Shown here: one piece after another, positions 3,780-17,062 of the stretch
Layout of the letters: each line of letters opens with the position of its first letter
Numbering within the stretch: position 1 is the stretch's first letter
NCBI GenBank assembly: GCA_049317625.1
Contig: JBMOHX010000001.1
Location: forward strand, 1-31,993
Direction: 5' to 3'
Length of the DNA: 31,993 bases
Source of the DNA: Phycisphaerales bacterium
GTDB taxonomy: Bacteria > Planctomycetota > Phycisphaerae > Phycisphaerales > UBA1924
The notes under the pieces: model-generated
Databases searched by the model: none
What the model was told of the DNA's origin: nothing
The model's input: only the letters and a program-made list of their open reading frames with translations
Translations under genes and position numbers: made by a program

Positions 3780-3807
3780 TTGTTTGAGACCGCCGATCCG
3801 TTATGGT
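3780..3807 (+). promoter_or_regulatory. Putative sigma70-type promoter TTGTTT-N16-TATGGT
   Basis: -35-like 3780-3785 and -10-like 3802-3807, 10 nt before ATG 3818. Confidence 0.35.
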
Positions 3808-3817
3808 AGTGCGACGC

Positions 3818-6013
3818 ATGTGGACCTCCCGCGATCTCCGATTCGCCGCTTGGACCTGGCCCCTCTGGGCGGTGTGCGCGGCCGGTGCGCAGGTGTACTC
3901 CTCGGGCGGGGTCAACACGCCGATTCCCGACGCGGGGGTGCTGTCGTCGGTCATCCATGTTGAGGCGGGCCCCGGGTCGATCGGAACGCTGCGCGTCCGG
4001 GTCCGACTCGAGCACTCGTGGGACGCGGACCTTGATCTCGCGATCATCCCTCCGGGGGCGACCGCGTACCTGCACCTCGCGAGCGATCTCGGGGGAAGCG
4101 GCGACGGATTCGATGCGACGACGTTTGACGGGGCGGCTTCGAAGTCCATCCGCGAGGCGGGGGCTCCCTTCGCGGGCACGTACCGGCCGGAGGGTGGGCC
4201 GATGATCTGGAACTTCGGCCCCGGGCTGCCGGGTTTGGCGCTCGACCAACTCCAGGATCTCTCCGGCGGGCCCGCCGATGGGGATTGGACTCTGCTCGTC
4301 GCGGACGACTTCCTGGGGGAGACCGGCACGCTCGTGGAGTGGGCGCTGATGTTCTCCGGTCCCGGAGCACCGTCTCCGATGCAAGCTGCGCTCACGTTGT
4401 CGCCGGGAGCGGCGGGGCCCGGCGCATCGGTTGTCGCGGAGCTGCGGGTGCAGTTCGGGCAGTTCCCGCTGAGCACTGGTGTGGTTGCCTCGCTGGACGC
4501 GACCGCGGTCGGCGCGGGCGTGGTTCCGCTGGCGGACGATGGCGTTGCTCCGGATGAGTCGGCCGGCGACCGGACCTTCACGGGCCAGCTCGCGATCGGC
4601 GGGTCCGCACCGCCGGGGCCGGCGGCGCTCGTGTTCGCCGCGGCCGATGCGCAGCTCCGCACGGCCACTGGTTCGGCGGTGGTGACGGTGCTTCCGGCGC
4701 CCGCGGTGAACGACCGGTGCGAGGAGGCTGTGGAGATCGGGCAGGGCGCACTTCCCTACGTCGCGCCGGCGCAGCCCGCGGCTGGGAACTCCGTGGACTG
4801 CGAGCATCCGCTCGCGTGCGCGGCGGGGGGCGGGGAGAACGCGGCGCGGTCGGTGTGGTACCGGTTTGTCTGCGAGCAGAGCGGTGCGTATCTCGTCTCA
4901 ACATCGCAAGCCCGTGCGCCCGGATGTACCGTGGCCGACACGGTGCTGGGGGTGTACGAGTCGCAGGCCGGGGATTGCGCAGCGCTGATTCCTCTGGCGT
5001 GCGACGACGATTCGGGGAGCGGGAAGGCGGCGGAACTCGAGATCAATCTGGCGGCGGGGGGTGTGTATTACGTGCAGGTCGCGGAGTGGGCACCGGGGGG
5101 CGGCGCGGCGGGCGAACTGTCGGTCTCATTCGAGCGCTCGGTGGTCGTCGGGGCGTGCTGCACGGTGACAGGCTGTGCGCGGGTGACCGCCGACGAGTGC
5201 GCGGCGGTGGGAGGGAGTTACCTCGGCGATGGCATCGGGTGCGCTCCGGGGAGCGGGCTGGTGCTGGAAGGCGCGGCGTACGCGTTCGAGGACATCGCGC
5301 AGTCGGGCGCGGTGCTGTTGCTCGGTGACGACGCGAGCGTGCCCGTGCACCTGGGGTTCGAGTTCGGGTTTCTGGGCGGCTCCTACACGGCGTGCAACGT
5401 GGGCTCAAACGGGCTGATCACGTTTGGTTCGGCGTCGACGACGTACCTGAACACGGCGATCCCCTCTGCGGCACCACCGAACGCGGCCGTGTACGCGCTG
5501 TGGGATGATCTGGATCCTGGCGCGGGGGGCGATGTGCGCTTCGAGGTCCGCGGCGCTGCGGGGGTCGACCTTCGGCTCATCGTGCAGTGGAGCATGGTTC
5601 CGCAGCACGGCTTCGGCGACGCGAACACGTTTCAGGTGGTGCTGATGGAGGGCGGATCGGCCTTCCTGTCGTATGGCGTGATCAGCGCGTTCAGCGATGG
5701 AGACGCGACGATCGGCGTGGAGAGCGCGGACGGCACTATCGCGCTGTCGCGTCCGGCGTCGCTTGTGGTGACCGGGACCACGCTCCGCCTTTGGACTGCG
5801 CCCGGCGTTGCGTCGTGCGCGGTCTGCGCGTGGGCGGTGGACGGGTGCGGCGCCGACTACACGAACGACGAGGCGGTGGACGGCGACGACGTCATCGCGT
5901 TCTTCGGCGATTGGGACGGTGGGGTGACCTGTGCCGATGTGGACCTCTCCGGATCGGTGGACGGGGACGACGTGATCTGGTTCTTTCAAAGGTGGGATTC
6001 CGGCGGCTGCTAA
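3818..6013 (+). CDS. Secreted GC-type dockerin-anchored protein, full-length paralogue of 496-2721, about 731 aa
   Basis: Same domain order: P-like domain (HSWDADLDLAII...GDWTLLVADD), LADDGVAPDESAGD, VNDRC, GACC motif, VYALWDDL, dockerin ending WDSGGC. Signal-like N-terminus. Start at 3818 or 3803 is uncertain. Confidence 0.8.
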   Translation: MWTSRDLRFAAWTWPLWAVCAAGAQVYSSGGVNTPIPDAGVLSSVIHVEAGPGSIGTLRVRVRLEHSWDADLDLAIIPPGATAYLHLASDLGGSGDGFDATTFDGAASKSIREAGAPFAGTYRPEGGPMIWNFGPGLPGLALDQLQDLSGGPADGDWTLLVADDFLGETGTLVEWALMFSGPGAPSPMQAALTLSPGAAGPGASVVAELRVQFGQFPLSTGVVASLDATAVGAGVVPLADDGVAPDESAGDRTFTGQLAIGGSAPPGPAALVFAAADAQLRTATGSAVVTVLPAPAVNDRCEEAVEIGQGALPYVAPAQPAAGNSVDCEHPLACAAGGGENAARSVWYRFVCEQSGAYLVSTSQARAPGCTVADTVLGVYESQAGDCAALIPLACDDDSGSGKAAELEINLAAGGVYYVQVAEWAPGGGAAGELSVSFERSVVVGACCTVTGCARVTADECAAVGGSYLGDGIGCAPGSGLVLEGAAYAFEDIAQSGAVLLLGDDASVPVHLGFEFGFLGGSYTACNVGSNGLITFGSASTTYLNTAIPSAAPPNAAVYALWDDLDPGAGGDVRFEVRGAAGVDLRLIVQWSMVPQHGFGDANTFQVVLMEGGSAFLSYGVISAFSDGDATIGVESADGTIALSRPASLVVTGTTLRLWTAPGVASCAVCAWAVDGCGADYTNDEAVDGDDVIAFFGDWDGGVTCADVDLSGSVDGDDVIWFFQRWDSGGC

Positions 6014-6133: not shown

Positions 6134-6691
6134 ATGGACTACCGAGACAGCAGCGACGAGTCGCTCATGGAGACGACGCGTGGAGGGTCGAGGGCCGCGT
6201 TCGAGGTGCTCATCAGGCGCTTCTCGACGCGGCTGCTCACCTTCCTCGTTCGGCTCACGGGGCGGTTGCATTCCGCGGAGGATCTCTTTCAAGAGACCTT
6301 CGCGGCGGTGTGGACCAGGCGGGAGACCTACAAGGTCGGCCGCGCGTTCAAGCCGTGGCTGTACGCCATCGCGGTGAACAAGTTCCGCGAGGGTGTGAGG
6401 CGTGCACCGGAGCTCACGGTGGATGTGGACCCTGATCACGCGTCGTGGGCGAGGGGCGAGGAGGCCGGCGGGGGGCGGGAGCTCGCGGCGGCGACAACGG
6501 CCGCGCTCGCTCGGCTGAGCGACCGGCAGCGGGAGGTGCTGGTGCTTCACCTCTACGGCGGCTTGAGCTACGCGCAGGTTGGCGAGTGCCTCGACTGCGG
6601 GGAGGCGACCGCGCGGGGTCACATGTTCCAGGCGTTGGCGGTTCTGCGGCGCGAGATGAGGGTGGCGGAGTCAAAGGAGGCGGCGCGGTGA
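6134..6691 (+). CDS. ECF-family (sigma-70 group 4) RNA polymerase sigma factor, 185 aa
   Basis: Region 2: AFEVLIRRF...AEDLFQETF..VW...FKPWLYAIAVN. Region 4: LSDRQREVLVLHLYGGLSYAQVGECL...TARGHMFQA. GGAGG at 6119-6123. Confidence 0.93.
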   Translation: MDYRDSSDESLMETTRGGSRAAFEVLIRRFSTRLLTFLVRLTGRLHSAEDLFQETFAAVWTRRETYKVGRAFKPWLYAIAVNKFREGVRRAPELTVDVDPDHASWARGEEAGGGRELAAATTAALARLSDRQREVLVLHLYGGLSYAQVGECLDCGEATARGHMFQALAVLRREMRVAESKEAAR

Positions 6692-9600
6692 TGAACCCGG
6701 ACACGAACAACGAGAAGCTGAATGAAACGGCGGATGCGCTGGTGTTTGGGCTGTTGAACGAGAACGAGGCGGCCCGCGTTCAGGCCCGCGCGGCGTCGGA
6801 TCCCGCGATGGCCGCGGCGATCCAGAGCGCCCGGGCTCGGCGTGAGGCGTTGCTCGCGCTGCCGACGGCGGAGCCATCGAGCGCGCTCATCGCGGCGGCG
6901 TTGAACTCGGCCCAGGCAGATGCCCAGCGTGTTGCGAGGCGGCACGGCCGCCGGCGCAGCATCTCACGCGGGATCGGAGGGGTGCTCGCGTTCGCGGTCG
7001 CCGTGATCGCGTGCTTTCACGCGTGGATCGACGGGTGGAAGCCGCCGGTGGTCGGTGTGCAGCTTGTCGCCCAGCAGGAAGTGAACGCGGGATCGCGCGG
7101 CTCGATGCGGGTTGTGGTGCAGGACGTCTCCGGCGAAGAGCCCGCGACGGGGAAGAACGTGAGTCTCGTGCTGCGCGGCGGGTCGGGGGGCGCGGTGACG
7201 CTCGCGTCGTTCAAGACTGATGCGAACGGGACGGCGTCGCCGAGCTTCGAGTACCCCGACTGGGCCGCGGGTAACTACACGCTTTCGGTCGAGGTCGAGG
7301 GGCAGACGCACCTGGAGCGCACCGTGGAGCTTAAGCGTGAACGCCGCGTGATGCTCAGCACCGACAAGCCGCAGTACCAGCCTGGGCAGACGATCCACGT
7401 GCGTGCGCTGGCGCTGACCCGGGGCGACGGGAAGCCCGCCGCGAAAGAGTCGGCGGTGTTCAGCGTGGTGGACCCGAGCGGGAACACGATTTTCAAGAAG
7501 TCGGGGGCGACCAGCGAGTTCGGGATCGTGTCGGCCGACTGCGAGCTCGCGAGCGAGATCCGGGAGGGGCCGTACACGATCCGCGCGGACATCGGGACGA
7601 CGCAGTCTTCCCGCACGGTGGAGGTGAAGAAGTACGTCCTGCCGAAGTTCAAGGTCGGGCTGGAGCTTGATGCGCAGTTCTACACGCCGGGCGCGACGGT
7701 GAAGGGGACGATCGACGCACGCTACTTCTTCGGCAAAGCCGTGAGCGGCAAGGTCGAGGTGGTTGTGCGCCCCATCGGCATCGTCACCGACGAGATCAAG
7801 GCCCCGGCGGTGAACCTCGACGCCGACGGCAGGGGCGCGTTCAGCGTCGAGCTGCCGAAGAAGCTCTTCGGGCGCGAGCAGGACGGGGGCGATGCGCGGG
7901 TGGAGATCGTGGCGACGGTCCGCGACACCGCCGGGCAGGAGGTCAAGCGCGTGGCCTCGCGCGTCGTGAGCGCGGCTGCGCTGCGGATGGAAGTCGTCCC
8001 CGAGTGCGAGACTCTTGTCGTGGGCGTGCCGCAGAAGATTCACGTGTTCGTGACCGCGCCGGATGGATCACCCGCGTCGGCCCGCGTGGGCGTGGGCGAT
8101 GGCGAGGGGATCGCGACCTCCGACCAGGGGCTCGCGACGATCGAGTGGACGCCGACACAGGACAACGAGAAGCTCGATGTGTGGGCGAAAGCGGGCAAGT
8201 CCCGCGTGCACCGCGTGGTGTCGCTCAGCTCGGTGCGCGAGGGGTTCGTGCTGCGGACCGACGGCGCATCGTACGAGGCGGGCGGGACCATGGTCGTGAC
8301 TGCGCTCGGTGCGGGCGTGCAGCCGGTCTTCGTGGATCTCATCAAGGACGGGCAGACGGTGGCGACGTACGTCGTCGAGATGAAGGAAGGTCGCGGCGAG
8401 CTCGCGGTTGATCTCCCGGCGGAGCTCAGCGGCGCGGTGATGGTCGAGGCGTACCGGTTCAACGCGATGGGTCTGCCGGTGCGCACGAGCCGACCGGTGC
8501 TGGTGCGGCCCGCGACGCGGCTCAATGTGGCGGTCGGGGCGGACAAGCCCGAGCACCGGCCGGGCGAGGGGGCCTCGCTCACGTTCACGCTCACGAGCGC
8601 TGACGGCAAGCCGGCACCGGGCGCGGTGAGCCTCGCGGTGGTTGACGAGGCGGCGCTGAGTGTGATGAAGGACCGGCCGGGGATGGAGAGCGCGTTCTTT
8701 CTGCTGGAGGACGAGCTGCTCAAGCCCGCGGCGGTCTTGTACCGGGAGGACATGCTGTCGCCGCGGCTGACGAAGGAGCAGTCGAACAGGGCGAGCTTCG
8801 GCGCGGCGATGTCGCGCGGGAGCGTGCGGGGTGTGGACCCGGCGACGCGGCTGGAGCAGCTCGGGTTCGGTCGGGTGTCGCGGAATGAACTGTGGAGGTA
8901 CCTGGAGAATGGCGGGGCGGGGCTCGCGCCCGCGGACTTCGGCTCGCCCAACGTGAAGGCGCTCCTGGCCTCGAGCCACGGGGAGGCGGAGTGGCGGTTC
9001 GAGCACGAGCGTCGGGAGGCGATGAGCTCGGTTTACGGCGCGTGGGCCATCACGGTGGTGGCCGCGGTACTCGCGGGTTTGGTGGTGCTGGGTTTGTACG
9101 TGCGAAGCACAGCCATCATGTTCGCGGTGGTGATCGCGCTGCTGGCCCTCGTGACGGCGCTGATGCTCCCGGCCCTGGGCCAGGCCCGGTCCTCTGCCCG
9201 GGGCCTGAGGGGGCAGATGCCCCCCGACGCGGCGGCGGGGCCTTTCTTTGGAGGAATGCCGACAACCGACGCGCAGCTCCCGATGCCGATGATGAACGCG
9301 TCGGCGGGCCCGTCCAAGTCGCCGTTGTCTCCGACCCGGGTGCGTGAGTGGTTCCCCGAGACACTCGTGTGGGCTCCGGAGCTGATCGCGGATGAGAACG
9401 GGAAAGCGACGATCGGCTTCGATTTTGCGGACTCGATCACGAACTGGAAGGCTCTGGGGAGCGTGGTCTCGCCGACGGGTGCGCTCGGGTCTTTCGATGC
9501 CGATCTGCGGGTCTTCCAGCCGTTCTTCGTGGACGTGAACGCGCCGGTTGCGCTGGTGCAGAACGATGTGATTGACCTGCCGCTGGTGGTGTACAACTAC

Positions 9601-11451
9601 CTGGAGACGCCGCAGCGGGTGAAGCTGAACGCGGAAGTCGGCGACTGGTGCGTGCTGCTGAGCGAGCCGGACTTTGAGATCGACCTCAAGCCCGGCGAGG
9701 TGCGCTCGGTGGGGCTGCGGCTCCGCGCGACGAAGGTGGGCGTGCATTCGCTGCTGGTGAACGCGGGGGCGGACGGGGTTGCCGACGCGATCCGCAAGAC
9801 GATCGAGGTGGTGCCCGACGGTGTGCCGGTGGAGCAGGTGGTGAGCGCGTCGATCGACGATGCGCTGGAGTCTGAAGTGGTGCTTCCGCCCGGCGCGATC
9901 GGGGGCAGCGAGCGGTTGCTGGTGCGCATCTTCCCGTCCACTTTCAGCGAGGTGCTCGGCGGGCTCGATGGGATCCTGGCCATCCCGCACGGGTGCTTCG
10001 AGCAGACGTCGTCGACCACGTATCCCAATGTGCTCGCGCTCGATTACCTGCGCACGACCGGCAAGGCTGCGCCGGAAGTTGAAGCCCGCGCACGGCAGTA
10101 CATCCACCTCGGGTACCAGCGGCTGTTGAGCTTCGAGGTGGCGGGCGGCGGGTTTGACTGGTTCGGCCGTGCGCCCGCGAACCTTGTGCTCACCGCGTAC
10201 GGGCTCATGGAGTTCGAGGACATGGCCCGCGTGCACGACGTGGACCCGGCGCTGATCGAGCGGACGAGGAAGTGGCTCCTCTCCAAGCGTGCGGCCGACG
10301 GCTCGTGGAACGCCGATGCCCACATGCTCAACGACGGGCTGGCGGGGAGTGTGCACCGGGGCGGCGACCTCACCCTCGCGACCACGGCGTACGTGGCGTG
10401 GTCGGTCTTCGGGAACGGCCAGGCATCGGAGGAAGCTGAGTCGACGCTGAACTGGCTGCTCTCGCACGAGCCTACGACGGTTGACAACCAGCACACGCTC
10501 GCGCTGATGTGCAACGCGCTTCTGGCGATGTCGCCGAAGGACGCGGGTCCGTATCTTGCGCGGCTGGTCTCGCTGGCGGAACGCGCGGAGAACGGGAAGT
10601 CGGCCCGGTGGTCGATGCCCGTCGAGGCCCGGACCACGTTCTACGGTCGCGGCGGCTCGGCCGAGATCGAGACGACATCGCTCGCGGTGCTCGCGCTGAT
10701 GAAGGCGAAGCAGGAGTCTCCGCTGTGCCGTTCGGCGCTGACATGGATCACGGCCCAGCGTGACGCGCGCGGCGCGTGGCACTCCACCCAAGCGACAGTG
10801 CTCGCGCTCAAGGCGCTGCTTTCGGCTTCGGGGCGTGCCCTCGGCGGTGACGGGCAGAAGGACATCCGCATCTCGGTCGACGGGCGCGAAGTCCGCAAGG
10901 TGTCTATCGAGGCGGATCAGTCCGACGTGGTGCAGCTGGTGGACTTGAGCAAGGAGTTCGCGGCGGGCGCTCGCGCGGTGCGCGTTGAAGACGTGACCAA
11001 GTCGGGGTGCACGGCGCAGATCACGACCCGGGCGTTCGTCCCGCGTCCGGACGACACGGTCGGAGAAGCCACGCTGGCGGTGGACGTGGTGTACGACAAG
11101 TCCGAGCTCAAGGTGGGGGACACGCTGAAGGCCAAGGCCACTGTTCGGAACCGGGCGGCGGAGGCTGCGCCGATGGTGATGGTGGATCTGCCGGTGCCGG
11201 CGGGCTTTGCCCCGGATCTCGACGCGTTCGATGGGCTGCGGGAGAAGGGTGTCATCGCGCGGTACGAGGCGACGCCGCGATCGGTGATCGTGTATCTGAC
11301 GTCGATCCCGGCGGGCGGCGCGGTGAGGCTGGACTACGGGATGCGTTCGACGATGCCCGTGGAGGTGACGACGCCGGGCGCGGCGGTGTGGGAGTACTAC
11401 AACCCGGCGAACCGTGGTGTGGGTCGATCCGGGCGCGTGAAGTCCTTGTGA
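6691..11451 (+). CDS. Alpha-2-macroglobulin (thioester protein) with N-terminal anti-sigma-like domain and TM helix, 1586 aa
   Basis: ATG 6691 overlaps the sigma stop (TGATG) and has SD AAGGAGG about 10 nt upstream. A2M motifs: LSTDKPQYQPGQT, VKKYVLPKFKV, VREWFPETLVW, DSITNW, FQPFFVD, thioester GCFEQ (9991-10005), GYQRLLSF..GGGFDWFG, LTAYGL, STQATVLALKAL, MVDLPVPAGF, WEYYNP. Confidence 0.93.
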   Translation: MNPDTNNEKLNETADALVFGLLNENEAARVQARAASDPAMAAAIQSARARREALLALPTAEPSSALIAAALNSAQADAQRVARRHGRRRSISRGIGGVLAFAVAVIACFHAWIDGWKPPVVGVQLVAQQEVNAGSRGSMRVVVQDVSGEEPATGKNVSLVLRGGSGGAVTLASFKTDANGTASPSFEYPDWAAGNYTLSVEVEGQTHLERTVELKRERRVMLSTDKPQYQPGQTIHVRALALTRGDGKPAAKESAVFSVVDPSGNTIFKKSGATSEFGIVSADCELASEIREGPYTIRADIGTTQSSRTVEVKKYVLPKFKVGLELDAQFYTPGATVKGTIDARYFFGKAVSGKVEVVVRPIGIVTDEIKAPAVNLDADGRGAFSVELPKKLFGREQDGGDARVEIVATVRDTAGQEVKRVASRVVSAAALRMEVVPECETLVVGVPQKIHVFVTAPDGSPASARVGVGDGEGIATSDQGLATIEWTPTQDNEKLDVWAKAGKSRVHRVVSLSSVREGFVLRTDGASYEAGGTMVVTALGAGVQPVFVDLIKDGQTVATYVVEMKEGRGELAVDLPAELSGAVMVEAYRFNAMGLPVRTSRPVLVRPATRLNVAVGADKPEHRPGEGASLTFTLTSADGKPAPGAVSLAVVDEAALSVMKDRPGMESAFFLLEDELLKPAAVLYREDMLSPRLTKEQSNRASFGAAMSRGSVRGVDPATRLEQLGFGRVSRNELWRYLENGGAGLAPADFGSPNVKALLASSHGEAEWRFEHERREAMSSVYGAWAITVVAAVLAGLVVLGLYVRSTAIMFAVVIALLALVTALMLPALGQARSSARGLRGQMPPDAAAGPFFGGMPTTDAQLPMPMMNASAGPSKSPLSPTRVREWFPETLVWAPELIADENGKATIGFDFADSITNWKALGSVVSPTGALGSFDADLRVFQPFFVDVNAPVALVQNDVIDLPLVVYNYLETPQRVKLNAEVGDWCVLLSEPDFEIDLKPGEVRSVGLRLRATKVGVHSLLVNAGADGVADAIRKTIEVVPDGVPVEQVVSASIDDALESEVVLPPGAIGGSERLLVRIFPSTFSEVLGGLDGILAIPHGCFEQTSSTTYPNVLALDYLRTTGKAAPEVEARARQYIHLGYQRLLSFEVAGGGFDWFGRAPANLVLTAYGLMEFEDMARVHDVDPALIERTRKWLLSKRAADGSWNADAHMLNDGLAGSVHRGGDLTLATTAYVAWSVFGNGQASEEAESTLNWLLSHEPTTVDNQHTLALMCNALLAMSPKDAGPYLARLVSLAERAENGKSARWSMPVEARTTFYGRGGSAEIETTSLAVLALMKAKQESPLCRSALTWITAQRDARGAWHSTQATVLALKALLSASGRALGGDGQKDIRISVDGREVRKVSIEADQSDVVQLVDLSKEFAAGARAVRVEDVTKSGCTAQITTRAFVPRPDDTVGEATLAVDVVYDKSELKVGDTLKAKATVRNRAAEAAPMVMVDLPVPAGFAPDLDAFDGLREKGVIARYEATPRSVIVYLTSIPAGGAVRLDYGMRSTMPVEVTTPGAAVWEYYNPANRGVGRSGRVKSL

Positions 11452-11690: not shown

Positions 11691-11746
11691 TCCTTGCGAT
11701 CGGTGCGCGTCGTTTTGTTGTGCGCACTTTGAAGAGAGAGACTGAG

Positions 11747-12385
11747 ATGAAGAACAGCATGATTCTTGCGGTCGTCGGCGCCGCCGCCGCGGTTTCGGTC
11801 GCGCAGGGCGCGGTCGTCACGGCGAACTACACGGGTGATTACGGTCGCCAGGTGCAGACCAGCATGGGCAACTACCAGACGGTGAAGTTCACCTGGACGC
11901 GCGTCGATGCCCCGGGCCCGGGCGTTGACACGACGATCGCGTCGACCTTCAACACGTACTGCGTCGAGATCAACCAGCACGTCAGCGGCGGGAACGACTA
12001 CACGTACAACGTCGTCTCGGCCGCGGCTCACGGCTTCTCCCCCGTGCAGGAGGCCCTCCTGGGCCGCCTCTGGTGGAGCTACTTCGCGCAGATCAACACG
12101 GCCGTCGAGTCGTCCGCGTTCCAGGTTGCGGTGTGGGAGATCGCGCTCGACAGCGGGCTCGACTTCGCGGGCGGTGGTCTGACGATCAACGCTCCGGCGG
12201 ACACGATCGCCCTCGCGTCGTCCTGGCTCAGCGCGATCACCAGCGCCACGTACGCTGGCGCCGCCGAGTCGATCGTGGTGCTCGAGAACGGAAGCGCTCA
12301 GGACCAGATCACCGTGGTCCCGGCTCCGGGCGTGCTCGCTCTGGCGGGCCTCGGCGCTCTGGCGGCGGGTCGTCGTCGCCGCTGA
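11747..12385 (+). CDS. Small PEP-CTERM (exosortase-target) surface protein, 212 aa
   Basis: Signal peptide MKNSMILAVVGAAAAVSVAQG; core motifs FNTYCVEINQ and FQVAVWEI; C-terminal VPAPGVLALAGLGALAAGRRRR. Confidence 0.88.
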   Translation: MKNSMILAVVGAAAAVSVAQGAVVTANYTGDYGRQVQTSMGNYQTVKFTWTRVDAPGPGVDTTIASTFNTYCVEINQHVSGGNDYTYNVVSAAAHGFSPVQEALLGRLWWSYFAQINTAVESSAFQVAVWEIALDSGLDFAGGGLTINAPADTIALASSWLSAITSATYAGAAESIVVLENGSAQDQITVVPAPGVLALAGLGALAAGRRRR

Positions 12386-13595: not shown

Positions 13596-14582
13596 TTAGG
13601 TCTTGACCAGCGTGAGGAGGATGTTCGCGAGGTTGAACAGGACGTGCATCACCACGGGCACCATGAGGCTCCGAGTGCGTTCGAACGCCACGCCCAACGC
13701 GGCGCCGAAGATGAACAGTGCCGCGATCGCGTGCCAGGTGCCGGCGCGGGCTTCGCCAAGGTGCATCGCCGCGAATGCGGCGCTGGTCGCGGCCACCGCG
13801 ACCCAGGGCCTACCGAAGAGCCCGACCAGCGCGGACTGCAAGCACCCGCGGAAGATGAACTCTTCGACGATGGGTGCGCCGAGCACCGCGCACGCGGCGA
13901 GCGCGAGCGCCCAGGGGTCGCGGCCGTTTGCCTGCAGCGCGGCGAGCGTGGAATGGGCGACGTCGCTGGGCGCGGGGCCGCCGAACTTCACGGTGACCCA
14001 GGCGGCCCCGATCGCCGTGCACTGCACGAGCGGCCACGCCAGCAGGAGGGCGAAGATGCCCTTGGTGAAGTCCGGGGGCTTGACGGTCATGCCCGAGTCC
14101 GGCGCGGACATCGCCATCAGCCGGGCCAAGAGCAGGGCGGTGGGCACGGAGATCGCGTAGTTACCGAGCTGAAGGAGCGCGGCGTCACGGAGGCTCGAAG
14201 ATCCGGGCGTGATCCCCAGCGTCGATGCCGCGATGACCCCGCCAGCGACCATCGCCAGGAACGCGAGCGCGCCGCTGGCGAGCCAGATGACCGTGGGGTG
14301 AGATTCGACCTTTCGAGGCCCTCCGGCGCTGAGGGAGTCCTTCTTCAGCACCCCGAGGAACCAGAGCGCCGCGAGCGCGACCGCGCCGCCGATCAGGTGC
14401 AGCCATGTCCAGGGGTCGGCCCGGATCTGCTTGACCCAATCTGCCGCGGCGTCTTTGGCGGTGGCCCCGGCCTGCGTGGCGAGTTTCTCGACCTGGGTCC
14501 CGAGGTCCGGTGCCGCCGAGGCGTCCGCTGCCGCACCCATCAGCAGGCCAACAATGAGCAGCGTGAACCAAACCCCCGCCAT
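13596..14582 (-). CDS. CPBP/Abi (CAAX type II) intramembrane glutamic endopeptidase
   Basis: APIVEEFIFRG (EExxxR), FAAMH (FxxxH), VMHVLFN (HxxxN), multiple TM helices. Start is ATG 14582 (signal-like) or ATG 14540. The ORF-track extension to 15653 is antisense to trpC and is rejected. Confidence 0.85.
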   Translation of the reverse strand: MAGVWFTLLIVGLLMGAAADASAAPDLGTQVEKLATQAGATAKDAAADWVKQIRADPWTWLHLIGGAVALAALWFLGVLKKDSLSAGGPRKVESHPTVIWLASGALAFLAMVAGGVIAASTLGITPGSSSLRDAALLQLGNYAISVPTALLLARLMAMSAPDSGMTVKPPDFTKGIFALLLAWPLVQCTAIGAAWVTVKFGGPAPSDVAHSTLAALQANGRDPWALALAACAVLGAPIVEEFIFRGCLQSALVGLFGRPWVAVAATSAAFAAMHLGEARAGTWHAIAALFIFGAALGVAFERTRSLMVPVVMHVLFNLANILLTLVKT

Positions 14583-15462
14583 CCTCGCGGAGATCGTCGA
14601 GCACAAGAGGCTGGAGGTCGAACGCGCCAAGAGCTTGCTCTCCTTCGCCGAGCTGCGCGGCCGAGCGTTGGCCGAGCCGCCGCCCCGCGAACTCGCCGCG
14701 GCGGTGCGGCGGGGGCCTGCCGACCGCACGTCCGTGATCGCGGAGATCAAGCGGATGTCGCCCAGCAAGGGGCTCATCCGGGCGGAGATCAAGCGGATGA
14801 GCCCGAGCGCGGGCCTGATCCGTCCTGAGTACGCGGGCGAGGGGTTCCTGCCGGAGGGGATCGCCCAACGGTACCACGCCTGCGGCGCTTCGGCGATTTC
14901 GTGTCTAACGGATGAGAAGTTCTTCGGCGGGCATCTCTCGTACATCGAGAGGGTGCGGCTGGCCTGCCCCCTGCCGGTGCTTCGGAAGGACTTTCTGATC
15001 GACCCCTGGCAGGTGTGGGAGAGCCGCGCGGCGGGGGCGGACGCGGTGTTGCTGATCGCCGAGTGCCTGCCGGGAGGCGAGCTCGAGGCGCTGCTCGAGC
15101 CGGCGCTGGCGCTGGGCATGTCGGTGCTGGTCGAGGTCCACGACCGCGAGAATCTGGAGAGGGTGCTTCCGGTGGTTGAGGGGCGGGAGCGGGTATTGCT
15201 CGGCGTGAACAGCCGGGACCTGAGGACGATGCGGGTCGATCTGGGCCACGCGATGGCGCTGGCGGCGTTGGTCGCCGACCGGTCGTCGTTCGTAGCGGAA
15301 TCGGGTATCCGAACGCCACACGATCTCGCAAGATTGCGCGAAGCGGGCGTGCGCATCGCCCTCGTTGGCGAACACCTGATGAGACAATCGGACCCTGGAC
15401 TCGCGCTGCGCGCGTTGTTCGGGGGTGCCGGAGCCGATGAAACCCTTCCGGACCCTTGCTGA
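14554..15462 (+). CDS. trpC: Indole-3-glycerol phosphate synthase, with an internal 14-aa duplication
   Basis: ILAEIVEHK, IAEIKRMSPS, AISCLTDEKFFGG, PVLRKDFLIDPWQVWE, GADAVLLI, VLVEVH, GVNSRDL, VAESGI, LVGEHLM. Start ATG 14554 or GTG 14563. Confidence 0.95.
   Translation: MSSVNQTPAILAEIVEHKRLEVERAKSLLSFAELRGRALAEPPPRELAAAVRRGPADRTSVIAEIKRMSPSKGLIRAEIKRMSPSAGLIRPEYAGEGFLPEGIAQRYHACGASAISCLTDEKFFGGHLSYIERVRLACPLPVLRKDFLIDPWQVWESRAAGADAVLLIAECLPGGELEALLEPALALGMSVLVEVHDRENLERVLPVVEGRERVLLGVNSRDLRTMRVDLGHAMALAALVADRSSFVAESGIRTPHDLARLREAGVRIALVGEHLMRQSDPGLALRALFGGAGADETLPDPC
14740..14823 (+). repeat. In-frame 42-bp tandem duplication inside trpC (AEIKRMSPSKGLIR / AEIKRMSPSAGLIR)
   Basis: Copy 1 is 14740-14781 and copy 2 is 14782-14823. 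The first 18 nt are identical; later codons differ mostly synonymously. Confidence 0.95.
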
Positions 15463-15502
15463 TGGCGAGGCGTTCGAAGACCCCATGATGGAGACGTCTG
15501 TG

Positions 15503-17062
15503 ATGAATCGTGTTTCGACCTTGCTCTCGCTCCCCGTTGCGTTTCTCCTGCTGGCCGCCGGTGCACCCGTGAGCTTTGCTCAAGACCAGCCCGAGCACCA
15601 GGAAGATGATGCAAAGCCCAAGCCCAAAGCTCCGGAGCTGAAGCCTGATGCACCGGAGCAGCCGGCCGCGGTGGAGAAGCCGGCGGACGAGCAGCGCGAC
15701 GGCCCGGAGCACCGCCTGCTGCGGGACGCCGCGGAAGCGATCCGCGCGGCCAAGAGCCTCACGTACAAGGCGAGGGCGTACGGGACGGAGTCGATGGAGT
15801 CGATGTCTCCGAAGACCAACGCGTCGGTGTGGATGATGCGTGACGAGTCGGGCAACTGGCTTGTCCGAGCCAAGGGCACGGGCCAGGGGCGTTCGGGCGG
15901 CGACCAGGAGTTCGATGTCGCGTGGCGCAGGGAAACCGTCGAGTTCGTTGATCACAAGGAAAAGAAGGTCGTCGAGCGTCGGCCGCGCGAAGCCAGGAGC
16001 GGCGCGCTGCAGATCGCCTCGGCCTCGCGGATCGCGGAGCTGGTGGGACCGAATCCGTACGCGACGCTGTTCGCTGCGACTTCGCTCACGCTCGAGGATC
16101 GGCAGTCGGTCGCGGGCGTTGACTGCGACGTGCTCGTGGCGACGTCTGGCGCGAAGAAGTCGAAGGTTCGGTGGTGCTTCGGCGTCGAGGATCGCCTTCC
16201 CCGGAAGGTCGAGAAGATCATCGAGGGCGAGAAGGTCGCCGGCAGCATGGTGGTCGAGATTTCCGAGATCGAGGCCTCGCGCGACGAGTCGAAGGTGACG
16301 GCGGCGCAGGCCCGCGTGGAGGCTCCGAAAGACTACGCCGAAGACCGCTTCCAGCCGCGGGGCGCTCAGGACGCCGCGAACGCCGAGCTCCCGGCCGGGG
16401 AGCAGGCGAAGGTCGACGCGGAGAACGCCCGCCTGTTCGGCGGCGGCAGCCCCCAAAAAGGTCAGCCGGCGGAAGAGAAGTTGAGCGAGGACGAGATCAA
16501 GACCAGAGAGAAGCTTCGGGAGGCACAGGAGGCCGAGGCAAAGGCCAAGGCACAGGGGGGCGAACCGGCACCCAAGCCAGCCAATCCGCCGGTGCCCGCT
16601 GGCCCCGCCGCACCGACTCCCCAGCCGGCTCCCGCGGCCGCGCCCGTCCCCGTGACGAAGCTCCCGGCGTTTGAGATCACCTCGGCGTCGGGGAACAAGG
16701 TGAGCGTGGACTCGCTGAAGGGGTCGGTCGTGGTGATCGACTTCTTCGGCAGTTGGATGCCGCAGAAGTCATGGCAGCCAGCCTTGAACGCTTCGATCAA
16801 GGACGTTACCGACGTGAAGATCTACGCGGCCTCGGTCCGCGAGAAGTCGCAGGACGCGGCCGGGAAGGCGCTGAAGGATCGCAGCATCTCGTGGGAGCAC
16901 CTCCCGAACGCCGACCAGCTCGCGAAGGACCTGGGAATCAAGGTGTTCCCGGCGACGGTGGTCGTCGGCAAAGACGGCTCGATCGTGGAGATTTTCCAGA
17001 ACTGCCGGGGCGACGAGACGGCGGCGCGGGTGAAGGCGGCGGCGGAGAACGCTCGGAAGTAG
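15503..17062 (+). CDS. Secreted protein: LolA/DUF2092-like domain, Pro/Ala-rich linker, cysteine-less TlpA/thioredoxin-like domain, 519 aa
   Basis: GGAG at 15490-15493; signal peptide MNRVSTLL...VSFAQ; DRQSVAGVDCDVL...RLPRKVE typical of LolA-like folds; C-terminal LPAFEITSASGNKVSVDSLKGSVVVIDFFGSW and FPATVVVGKDG match the redoxin fold but CxxC is absent. Confidence 0.7.
   Translation: MNRVSTLLSLPVAFLLLAAGAPVSFAQDQPEHQEDDAKPKPKAPELKPDAPEQPAAVEKPADEQRDGPEHRLLRDAAEAIRAAKSLTYKARAYGTESMESMSPKTNASVWMMRDESGNWLVRAKGTGQGRSGGDQEFDVAWRRETVEFVDHKEKKVVERRPREARSGALQIASASRIAELVGPNPYATLFAATSLTLEDRQSVAGVDCDVLVATSGAKKSKVRWCFGVEDRLPRKVEKIIEGEKVAGSMVVEISEIEASRDESKVTAAQARVEAPKDYAEDRFQPRGAQDAANAELPAGEQAKVDAENARLFGGGSPQKGQPAEEKLSEDEIKTREKLREAQEAEAKAKAQGGEPAPKPANPPVPAGPAAPTPQPAPAAAPVPVTKLPAFEITSASGNKVSVDSLKGSVVVIDFFGSWMPQKSWQPALNASIKDVTDVKIYAASVREKSQDAAGKALKDRSISWEHLPNADQLAKDLGIKVFPATVVVGKDGSIVEIFQNCRGDETAARVKAAAENARK

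What the first reader, a model, noticed from the sequence alone, without database searches (positions are those of the whole stretch)
9034..9201. A2M bait region contains a two-helix hydrophobic hairpin ending in a degenerate type IV prepilin helix
Seen: just before the Pro/Met-rich bait stretch and RVREWFPETL lie two TM-length segments, YGAWAITVVAAVLAGLVVLGLYV and TAIMFAVVIALLALVTALMLPALGQARSSAR. Known: A2M bait regions are normally disordered and soluble. The planctomycete prepilin/DUF1559 N-terminus reads roughly GFTLIELLVVIAIIALLIGILLPALGKARxxAR. By hand alignment the second helix matches VVIAxxAxxxxLxLPALGxARxxAR but has lost G(-1), F1 and E5, so it is probably not a prepilin-peptidase substrate. 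Inference: a co-opted pilin helix tethers the bait to a membrane or to pilus machinery. It could couple bait cleavage mechanically to the membrane, or make the A2M respond to intramembrane proteases (a CPBP protease is encoded about 2 kb downstream).
Basis: partly seen in the sequence, partly recalled or inferred. Interest (0 to 1): 0.8.

Follow-up and report, generated by a model that had tools for sequence, protein, structure and literature searches.

The report
Pilin-derived membrane hairpin inside macroglobulin bait
A protease-trap protein (alpha-2-macroglobulin) fused to an anti-sigma factor in a planctomycete carries two membrane-spanning helices in its protease "bait" loop. The second helix is a copy of the stem helix of the cell's own pilin-like proteins, an unreported layout found across the phylum whose function is untested.

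Summary
Window 9034-9201 encodes residues 864-919 of the ORF 6445-11451 (true start 6691, 1586 aa), exactly the two hydrophobic segments quoted. They lie between the A2M bait-region domain and the RVREWFPETL strand.

The pilin reading is supported.
- An HMM of the genome's own 44 pilin N-termini hits helix 2 at E 0.002. It is the only internal hit among 41,279 six-frame ORFs.
- The helix DNA hits own pilin genes (77% identity, E 8e-7).
- A profile of the window's clade matches the pilin profile at 98% probability. Hairpins of non-pilin-like relatives score under 3%.
- Of 120 relatives, all have the hairpin. 39 hit Pfam DUF1559 and 42 hit GspG at this spot.
- None of the 120 keeps a canonical prepilin-peptidase site.
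- The helix follows each lineage's own pilin flavour: LPAVQxAREAARR in Planctomycetia, LPxLGxAR in Phycisphaerae.

Most likely it is an uncleaved pilin-type signal-anchor. It would re-export the C-terminal half and string a 45-residue disordered linker between the membrane and the A2M body, beside the anti-sigma membrane helix.

The suggested link to the CPBP protease is not supported. The scan had already noted the hairpin on another genome; the pilin homology and the co-variation are new here. I found no paper describing either.

The parts
6134..6691 (+). ECF sigma factor gene; its stop overlaps the A2M start (TGATG)
   Evidence: Pfam Sigma70_r2 3.5e-15 and r4 8.6e-11. Sequence at 6681-6700. 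A homologous sigma gene lies directly upstream in 60 of 80 related loci.
6691..11451 (+). Anti-sigma::alpha-2-macroglobulin fusion, 1586 aa (database copy P0002)
   Evidence: Pfam MG2, MG3, MG4, A2M_BRD, A2M, TED, A2M_recep. Weak NCBIfam anti-sigma hit at the N-terminus. It is the only A2M found in this 86%-complete genome.
6970..7029 (+). First membrane helix (TM1), preceded by the basic stretch RRHGRRR; anchors the cytoplasmic anti-sigma-like N-terminus
   Evidence: Hydropathy 2.22. Coordinates. AF2 gives a long helix at 65-114 of P0002.
9034..9102 (+). Hairpin helix 1 (outside-to-inside membrane helix)
   Evidence: AF2 helix with block pLDDT 82-91 in the short model and 75-87 in the long one. 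A hydrophobic helix stands here in all 120 relatives.
9103..9108 (+). Two-residue loop (R-S), predicted cytoplasmic; occupies pilin positions -1 and +1
   Evidence: Register fixed by the ungapped alignment on P22. Basic residues are enriched at -4 to +1 in relatives.
9109..9201 (+). Hairpin helix 2: degenerate copy of the pilin alpha-1 helix (pilin positions 2 to about 33), no peptidase site
   Evidence: Own-genome pilin HMM E 0.0022. DNA hit to own pilin genes E 8e-7. hhalign 98.0% probability, E 3e-13 for the window's clade. 17-19 of 37 identities in register.
9202..9336 (+). 45-residue Pro/Met/Ala-rich disordered linker, the likely protease-accessible bait proper
   Evidence: pLDDT under 50 in both AF2 models. 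Variable in relatives, median 45 residues, Met enriched 2.8-fold.
9337..9366 (+). RVREWFPETL, the strand where the conserved A2M domain resumes after the bait
   Evidence: Invariant R, F, P, E, T, L and W in 120 relatives. Pfam A2M domain starts at residue 973.
9991..10005 (+). GCFEQ thioester motif in the TED domain
   Evidence: Pfam TED 1.6e-43. G, C, F, E and Q are invariant in 64 relatives.

Best explanation
Window 9034-9201 encodes a two-helix membrane hairpin. It is inserted at the bait position of a thioester-containing alpha-2-macroglobulin that is itself the outer part of an ECF anti-sigma factor.

Helix 2 descends from the N-terminal alpha-1 helix of the cell's own type IV pilin-like (DUF1559/GspG-like) proteins. 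Here it is degenerate and has no prepilin-peptidase site.

Proposed mechanism (inferred):
- Helix 1 stops transfer and returns the chain to the cytoplasm.
- The two-residue basic loop stays inside.
- Helix 2 acts as an uncleaved pilin-type (class III) signal-anchor and re-exports the C-terminal half (MG6b, MG7, CUB, TED, receptor-binding domain).
- Both halves of the trap therefore sit in the periplasm. The only long flexible stretch, the 45-residue linker after helix 2, is strung between the membrane and the A2M body.
- A protease that cuts this linker frees the C-terminal half from its anchor and should trigger the usual A2M rearrangement.
- The hairpin lies in the same membrane as the helix that anchors the anti-sigma domain, so this is the likely route by which cleavage reaches the sigma factor.

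The pilin character follows each lineage's own pilins. I take this to mean the helix uses the same membrane partners or insertion route as pilins.
For: Shown:
- Position and sequence.
- The hairpin is present in 120 of 120 relatives.
- Pilin homology in the window itself: HMM E 0.0022, the only internal hit in the genome; DNA hit E 8e-7.
- Pilin homology in its clade: hhalign 98.0%, E 3e-13, against 0.8% and 2.8% for the non-pilin-like hairpin groups used as controls.
- Pilin homology in relatives: 39 of 120 hit DUF1559 and 42 of 120 hit GspG.
- The reverse search agrees: a profile of the A2M hairpins retrieves hundreds of 300-400 aa pilin-like ORFs at 1e-14 to 1e-16.
- No canonical cleavage site in any of 120 relatives. 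In the LPAVQ type, G(-1) occurs in 8 of 47, while P22, R28 and E29 each occur in 46 of 47.
- Co-variation with host pilins by class: Phycisphaerae 8 LPxLGxAR type and 0 LPAVQ type; Planctomycetia 16 LPAVQ type and 3 LPxLGxAR type.
- Co-variation by genome: the A2M helix is most similar to the pilins of its own genome in 4 of 5 genomes.
- Codon identity at shared residues is in the range seen between pilins (0.43 v 0.35 in one genome, 0.45 v 0.53 in the window's). The best donor-like DNA match is 83% over 80 nt. Recent gene conversion therefore does not explain the likeness.
- AF2 gives a helical hairpin followed by a disordered linker.
- Solved A2M, C3, C5 and CD109 structures align to only about 265-285 of 496 residues of the model. 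That number is about the size of its two beta-rich (MG) stretches, which suggests the roughly 230-residue insert has no counterpart; the per-residue alignment was not inspected.
- The sigma gene is translationally coupled and conserved upstream.

Precedent: membrane pilin pools are read through the pilin N-terminal helix by membrane helices of the sensors PleC and PilS (PMC7196804).
Against: - There are no experimental data of any kind.
- Topology rests on hydropathy, the positive-inside pattern and AF2 secondary structure. I could not inspect model coordinates, so packing of the hairpin against the first membrane helix is not shown.
- The window's own helix is a weak, degenerate copy. Likeness ends near pilin position 33, and no Pfam or NCBIfam model hits it directly.
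- About a third of relatives keep the hairpin but have no pilin likeness. Pilin features are therefore dispensable for whatever the hairpin does at its core.
- In the 5-genome matrix the window's helix is not closest to its own genome's pilins (0.27 v 0.34 for another genome).
- Only five genomes were compared, and relatives are not independent samples.
- How cleavage would release the sigma factor is unknown.
Confidence: 0.55

Rival explanations
1. Inert anchor with inherited or converted sequence. The hairpin is only a membrane tether. Its pilin likeness is a relic of an ancient insertion of a pilin gene's 5' end, kept close to the genome's pilins by occasional gene conversion from the 50-150 pilin genes per genome, with no pilin-specific function.
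For: - About a third of relatives have lost all pilin likeness yet keep the hairpin.
- The window's copy is decaying.
- DNA-level homology to many pilin genes exists, which is the substrate conversion needs.
- Pilin-like forms occur on the deepest branches of the family tree, which fits a single old origin.
Against: - No near-identical donor was found; the best is 83% over 80 nt.
- Codon identity at shared residues is no higher than between pilins.
- The most conserved part of pilins (GFTLIELLVV) is the least conserved part in the A2M copies, and no copy has regained the cleavage site. This argues for selection rather than neutral homogenisation.
- P22, R28, E29, N38 and A46 are kept in 41-46 of 47 copies although the pilin head domain they pack against is absent.
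Confidence: 0.2
2. Self-mimic bait. The exposed pilin-like stretch just outside the membrane (positions 22-49) is itself the bait. It would be a decoy of the cell's own abundant pilin-like proteins, so that a protease attacking those proteins is trapped and reported to the sigma factor.
For: - The stretch sits at the bait position.
- It follows the genome's own pilin flavour.
- The periplasm-exposed part is more conserved than the processing and assembly end.
- The pilin's conserved Cys36 is replaced by Ala, as expected for a free, head-less peptide.
Against: - Baits in characterised A2Ms are variable and disordered (general knowledge). This stretch is strongly conserved and predicted helical.
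- A variable, disordered, Met/Pro/Ala-rich linker that looks like a normal bait follows it.
- The window's own protein has lost most of the exposed pilin-like part.
Confidence: 0.12
3. Processed two-chain form. Helix 2 is a working internal signal that is cleaved, by prepilin peptidase in pilin-type relatives or by signal peptidase II in lipobox-type relatives. This would give a two-chain A2M split where complement C3/C4 are split, with the C-terminal chain carried as a modular pilin or a lipoprotein.
For: - Some relatives end helix 2 in lipobox-like motifs (for example ...TAGC-SSG...LGC-GAA) at the same place. These number 12 of 120, in at least three places on the tree.
- The genome encodes a prepilin peptidase and LspA.
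- About 22 of 47 LPAVQ-type copies have a Gly within three residues of the expected site.
- Splitting at this position is tolerated in C3/C4 (general knowledge).
Against: - The window's protein has R at -1, S at +1 and no Cys, so neither enzyme has a site here.
- None of 120 relatives has a canonical prepilin site.
- The one apparently split gene examined is a frameshift far from the hairpin.
Confidence: 0.08
4. Chance resemblance between two hydrophobic helices.
For: Membrane helices share composition, and the window's own segment gets no Pfam or NCBIfam hit.
Against: - Same-position hairpins without the motif, used as controls, score 0.8-2.8% against 98%.
- It is the only internal hit among 41,279 ORFs.
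- The DNA-level hit has E 8e-7.
- Relatives reach DUF1559 at 4.8e-16.
- The reverse search finds pilins.
Confidence: 0.02

Closest known systems
Bacterial alpha-2-macroglobulins ECAM/YfhM (E. coli) and Sa-A2M (Salmonella)
   Same: MG-domain ring, bait-region domain, CxEQ thioester in a TED domain and a receptor-binding-like end. They are the best structural matches to the modelled part: 4ziq Z 14.2, 4u48 Z 13.9. They are also held at the inner membrane facing the periplasm (general knowledge).
   Different: Those proteins are anchored by an N-terminal lipid and have a short soluble bait. Here the anchor is an anti-sigma membrane helix plus a hairpin inside a roughly 230-residue insert at the bait. 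The gene is paired with an ECF sigma factor, not with a penicillin-binding protein.
Type IV pilins, type II secretion pseudopilins and planctomycete DUF1559 proteins (class III signal peptide plus alpha-1 helix)
   Same: Helix 2 aligns in register with pilin positions 2 to about 33 (up to about 49 in relatives). This includes P22 and the lineage-specific LLPxxxxAR motif.
   Different: The helix is internal, about residue 806 of 1586. It has no G(-1)/F1 site, no E5 in this protein and no globular pilin head. Its upstream neighbour is another membrane helix rather than a short leader.
Complement C3/C4 chain processing and CD109 (membrane-tethered thioester protein)
   Same: The hairpin divides the protein where C3/C4 are cut into two chains (general knowledge). 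CD109 and C3/C5 are among the structural matches, Z 12-12.6. CD109 is likewise held at a membrane (general knowledge).
   Different: No cleavage is indicated here. The tether lies in the middle of the chain, not at the C-terminal end.
Sensing of membrane pilin pools through the pilin N-terminal helix (PilA-PleC in Caulobacter, PilA-PilS in Pseudomonas)
   Same: A pilin alpha-1 helix in the inner membrane contacts membrane helices of a signalling protein (PMC7196804). Here a pilin-type helix is built into a signalling protein.
   Different: In those systems the pilin is a separate, processed protein and the receiver is a histidine kinase. No such contact has been tested here.

Membership tests
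Alpha-2-macroglobulin / thioester-containing protein superfamily | Series of MG domains with a bait-region domain | tested here: met
   Pfam MG2 7e-23, MG3 2e-11, MG4 1.6e-5, A2M_BRD 3.9e-6, A2M 2.9e-21. Structural matches to ECAM, Sa-A2M, A2ML1 and C5 at Z 12-14.
Alpha-2-macroglobulin / thioester-containing protein superfamily | TED domain with a CxEQ thioester motif | tested here: met
   TED_complement 1.6e-43. GCFEQ at nt 9991-10005, invariant in 64 relatives.
Alpha-2-macroglobulin / thioester-containing protein superfamily | Protease cleavage of the bait triggers covalent trapping | not testable with these tools
   Needs biochemistry.
Type IV pilin / pseudopilin (class III signal peptide proteins) | Profile similarity to the hydrophobic alpha-1 helix with P22 | tested here: met
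   Own-genome pilin HMM E 0.0022. hhalign 98%. P22 in register.
Type IV pilin / pseudopilin (class III signal peptide proteins) | Short basic leader at the protein's N-terminus ending in G(-1), followed by F/M(+1) | tested here: not met
   The helix is internal, with R at -1 and S at +1. 0 of 120 relatives has a canonical site here.
Type IV pilin / pseudopilin (class III signal peptide proteins) | Glu at position 5 | tested here: not met
   Met in the window. Glu is kept in 26 of 47 LPAVQ-type relatives.
Type IV pilin / pseudopilin (class III signal peptide proteins) | Globular head domain after alpha-1 (for DUF1559: the rest of the 268-position Pfam model) | tested here: not met
   Only 31-71 residues separate helix 2 from the A2M strand. 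Own-genome DUF1559 matches elsewhere also cover mainly the N-terminal part of the model.
ECF anti-sigma factor (class I, membrane-anchored) | Gene directly follows and is co-oriented with an ECF sigma factor gene | tested here: met
   (TGATG overlap). 60 of 80 related loci. Also L001.
ECF anti-sigma factor (class I, membrane-anchored) | N-terminal anti-sigma domain, often with a zinc motif HxxxCxxC, then one membrane helix | tested here: inconclusive
   NCBIfam anti-sigma E 2.4e-4, 21 bits, below the cut-off of 100. AF2 gives three short helices followed by a long helix that includes the membrane segment. The consensus of relatives contains HCxxCxxC but the window's protein does not.
Bacterial lipoprotein signal (lipobox) | L-x-[GA]-C at the end of the hydrophobic helix | tested here: not met
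   There is no Cys in or after helix 2 of the window's protein. 12 of 120 relatives have lipobox-like motifs.

The most novel reading that the evidence does not exclude
The built-in pilin helix ties a protease-sensing anti-sigma factor to the cell's pilin system. It would either dock with the membrane pool of DUF1559 pilin-like proteins or their assembly platform, so that sigma activity reflects both protease attack and pilin state. Or it would serve as a decoy of those proteins. In both cases selection keeps it in step with each genome's own pilins across the phylum.
Probability: 0.25. Interest if true: 0.85.

Novelty: new variant of a known kind. Interest (0 to 1): 0.7.

Why it matters
A2M-type traps are thought to carry a free, soluble bait. 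Here a family found across the phylum puts the bait region through the membrane, using a helix borrowed from pilins. Relatives occur in at least 509 stretches of species-representative Planctomycetota genomes, and most have an ECF sigma gene directly upstream. If the proposed reading holds, there are three consequences.
- It offers a concrete route by which a protease cut outside the cell could be turned into a transcriptional response.
- It shows a class III (pilin) signal-anchor reused inside a large non-pilin protein.
- It gives the hugely expanded and functionally obscure DUF1559 pilin-like proteins of Planctomycetes a first candidate link to a signalling pathway.

A cultured carrier exists (Singulisphaera sp. 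Ch08, locus L050), so the predictions can be tested.

Tried and rejected
- Direct Pfam and NCBIfam scans of the window's own segment gave only noise-level hits to membrane families and no pilin model. The homology needed a genome-specific HMM and relatives.
- A natural split gene at the hairpin: the 926-aa relative P0022 looked like one, but it is a frameshift about 120 residues upstream of the hairpin.
- Recent gene conversion: no near-identical pilin donor was found, and there is no excess codon identity.
- CPBP protease link: opposite strand, with intervening unrelated genes.
- Counting carriers by searching 201 phylum genomes with the hairpin profile failed. The profile mostly retrieved pilin genes, so that tally (121 of 201) says nothing about A2M distribution.
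I could not check packing of the hairpin against the first membrane helix or whether the three helices share a plane.
- I did not run a complex prediction. Hydrophobic helices would probably outscore unrelated control proteins whatever the truth.
- Literature searches found nothing on this architecture. The term sets were DUF1559 with macroglobulin; macroglobulin with anti-sigma, ECF and Planctomycetes; and thioester with anti-sigma. Subscription-only papers were not searched.
Full report
**What is there.** The ORF at window 6445-11451 (+) most likely starts at the ATG at 6691. That start overlaps the stop of an ECF sigma factor gene (6134-6691; TGATG) and gives the 1586-aa protein held in the database as P0002. 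Pfam finds a complete alpha-2-macroglobulin: MG2, MG3, MG4, A2M_BRD (residues 607-739 of the ORF as read from 6445), A2M (973-1061), TED (1165-1458, with GCFEQ) and the receptor-binding domain. NCBIfam gives a weak anti-sigma hit at the N-terminus, which is followed by one membrane helix. It lies in the 230-residue gap between the bait-region domain and RVREWFPETL. The two segments are the most hydrophobic part of the protein: the best 19-residue window scores 2.92.

**Structure prediction.** I ran AlphaFold2 on residues 517-1012 of P0002 with 90 relatives, and on residues 1-1187 with 64 relatives. Both models give two long helices separated by two residues, with block pLDDT of about 59-91. 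A stretch of roughly 40 residues with pLDDT under 50 follows, and then the beta strands of the next MG domain. Solved A2M, A2ML1, CD109, C3 and C5 structures align to only about 265-285 of the 496 modelled residues (Z 12-14). That number is about the size of the two beta-rich stretches of the model, which suggests the insert has no counterpart in solved structures; I did not see the per-residue alignment. I could not read the coordinates, so packing against the first membrane helix is untested.

**Is helix 2 pilin-like beyond chance?** The genome (a 770-contig assembly) encodes about 45-50 prepilin-type proteins. Their N-termini read [GA]FTLIELLVVIAIIALLIGILLPALGKAR....
- An HMM built from 44 of them was searched without filters against all 41,279 six-frame ORFs. 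It hits the A2M at E 0.0022 (HMM positions 9-34). Every other hit below E 0.01 begins at HMM position 1-3, that is, at a true pilin N-terminus.
- Aligned without gaps on P22, the helix shares 17-19 of 37 residues with individual pilins, including T2, I4 and V8-A11 as well as the LPALG-AR motif.
- The coding DNA 9126-9189 matches a pilin gene on contig 89 at 77% identity (E 8e-7), and several other pilin genes more weakly.
- Profile-profile comparison of the window's nine-member clade against the own-genome pilin profile gives 98.0% probability, E 3e-13, over 46 columns. The same test on same-position hairpins of relatives without the motif gives 0.8% and 2.8%, so this is not generic membrane-helix likeness.

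**Relatives.** A search with the insert region returned 326 proteins of about 1600 aa.
- All 120 examined have an N-terminal membrane helix near residue 85-110 and a hydrophobic hairpin 31-112 residues before the invariant R-x-R-x-x-FPETL-x-W.
- About 80 of the 120 have a pilin-like helix 2.
- Scanned individually, 39 of the 120 segments hit Pfam DUF1559 (best E 4.8e-16). 42 hit GspG, 11 ComGC, 9 GspH and 8 PilA.
- In the 47 LPAVQ-type copies the likeness runs from position 2 to about 50. P22, R28 and E29 occur in 46 of 47, N38 in 41, A46 in 42 and E5 in 26. G(-1) occurs in only 8, and the pilins' Cys36 is usually Ala.
- No relative has a canonical cleavage motif at the hairpin.
- In the other direction, an HMM of the A2M hairpin segments pulls out hundreds of 300-400-aa pilin-like ORFs from other Planctomycetota genomes at 1e-14 to 1e-16.
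- On a tree built from the C-terminal 700 residues, pilin-like forms occur throughout, including the deepest branches. The pilin helix is therefore probably ancestral and was lost repeatedly (FastTree, midpoint root, so direction is not proven).

**Co-variation with the host's pilins.** Among species-representative genomes at least 509 stretches encode a relative, across Phycisphaerae, Tepidisphaerales, Pirellulales, Planctomycetales, Gemmatales and Isosphaerales.
- Loci from Phycisphaerae carry the LPxLGxAR/LPSLSRAR type (8, against 0 of the LPAVQ type).
- Loci from Planctomycetia carry mostly LPAVQxAREAARR (16, against 3, and those three come from genomes labelled only "uncultured Planctomycetales").
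- I extracted pilins from four further genomes. A Phycisphaeraceae genome has pilins reading ...VVISIIALLVGILLPALGAAR, and its A2M helix reads ...VVSIIALLVGILLPALGAARHSAR.
- In a 5x5 matrix, the A2M helix is most similar to the pilins of its own genome in four of five cases. The exception is the window's own degenerate copy.
- Codon identity at shared residues is in the range seen between pilins (0.43 v 0.35, and 0.45 v 0.53). The best DNA match to any pilin gene in that genome is 83% over 80 nt. Recent gene conversion is therefore not the cause.
- Five genomes is a small sample, and related genomes are not independent.

**Context.** A homologous ECF sigma gene lies immediately upstream in 60 of 80 related loci and in L001. 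Most of the other loci end too soon to tell. It lies beyond a PEP-CTERM gene and a minus-strand tRNA-synthetase gene, and it is absent from the neighbourhood in L001. The genome has one prepilin peptidase, one LspA and only this A2M.

**Interpretation.** The topology that fits is as follows.
- The anti-sigma domain is in the cytoplasm.
- The first membrane helix leads out.
- MG1 to the bait-region domain are in the periplasm.
- Helix 1 leads back in.
- The R-S loop is inside.
- Helix 2 leads out, exactly as a prepilin helix is oriented.
- The rest of the A2M is in the periplasm.

Helix 2 then works as an uncleaved pilin-type signal-anchor. The Met/Pro/Ala-rich linker after it is the exposed bait, strung between the membrane and the trap. 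Cutting the linker would disconnect the C-terminal half from the membrane next to the anti-sigma helix. This part is inference.

The conservation pattern has three features: a lost processing site, strongly kept positions 16-49 without any pilin head domain, and tracking of the host's pilins. To me this pattern argues for a shared membrane partner or insertion route rather than neutral decay. However, a third of the family does without the pilin features. Known cases where a sensor's membrane helix reads the pilin N-terminal helix (PleC, PilS; PMC7196804) make such contacts plausible.

**Rivals.** The alternatives are an inert anchor with converted sequence, a self-mimic bait, and a processed two-chain form. 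The last is suggested by the lipobox-like endings of helix 2 in 12 relatives, but the window's own sequence argues against it for this protein. Chance resemblance is excluded.

**Novelty.** No paper in the searchable library mentions this architecture. Earlier notes of this scan had recorded the sigma/anti-sigma::A2M pair and, on another genome, the membrane hairpin in the bait. The pilin origin of helix 2, the family-wide loss of the cleavage site, the co-variation with host pilins and the lipobox-type variants are new here.

Noticed in passing
relatives P0025, P0026, P0038, P0044, P0047, P0060, P0072, P0074, P0077, P0085, P0091, P0068; loci L051, L058, L062: In about 10% of relatives helix 2 ends in a lipobox-like motif (such as ...TAGC-SSG or ...LGC-GAA) instead of the pilin motif. 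These lie mostly in one clade, with at least two further origins. This suggests that a lipoprotein-type or a pilin-type signal can serve at the same position.
   Followed up: partly
relatives P0097, P0117, P0119: In these deep-branching relatives the insert holds about six hydrophobic segments instead of two, and still ends in a pilin-like helix (LLPALAKAK / LLPALGQAREKAR).
   Followed up: no
window 9202-9336 and the same linker in relatives: The linker between helix 2 and RVREWFPETL is enriched 2.8-fold in Met, and also in Ala, Pro, Ser and Asn. Some relatives have runs such as MPMMAMAGMP. Met-rich baits are unusual and could point to a particular protease class or to oxidation sensitivity.
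   Followed up: partly
window 6691-6960: The window's N-terminal domain lacks the zinc motif HCxxCxxC that stands in the consensus of 64 relatives. It is a non-zinc variant of the anti-sigma domain.
   Followed up: partly
window 3803-6013 (+): The gene just upstream of the sigma factor encodes a 736-aa protein with a proprotein-convertase P-domain (7e-7) and a weak nidogen-like hit. It is a possible secreted protein related to protease biology.
   Followed up: no
window 11720-12385 (+): The gene directly downstream of the A2M encodes a 221-aa protein ending in a weak PEP-CTERM sorting motif (E 0.002).
   Followed up: no
window 13596-15653 (-): This 685-aa minus-strand ORF is probably over-extended. 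Only its C-terminal end (about 13.6-13.9 kb) is Rce1-like/CPBP (3.9e-20), and the rest overlaps the plus-strand indole-3-glycerol-phosphate synthase gene at 14431-15462.
   Followed up: partly
L001:6004-10781: An orthologue on a 1.13-Mb metagenomic contig is called as two genes (647 and 926 aa). The cause is a frameshift at ...PLPG/ALSLAAVDE..., so it is a sequencing error or a pseudogene, not a natural split.
   Followed up: yes
L012, L080, L081 (labelled Alcaligenaceae), L034 (labelled Bipolaricaulota): Four carriers of this planctomycete-type gene sit in assemblies labelled as other phyla. The labels are probably binning or naming errors, but transfer was not excluded.
   Followed up: no
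own genome contigs 183 and 651 (L110:3036-4079; L111): Two own pilin-like proteins lack Cys36 and read ...ARQLKDSTQIRGI.... This is the same continuation as in the A2M helices of the window's clade (ARQLRDQ..LRG.G), which points to one pilin subfamily as the closest kin of the insert.
   Followed up: partly
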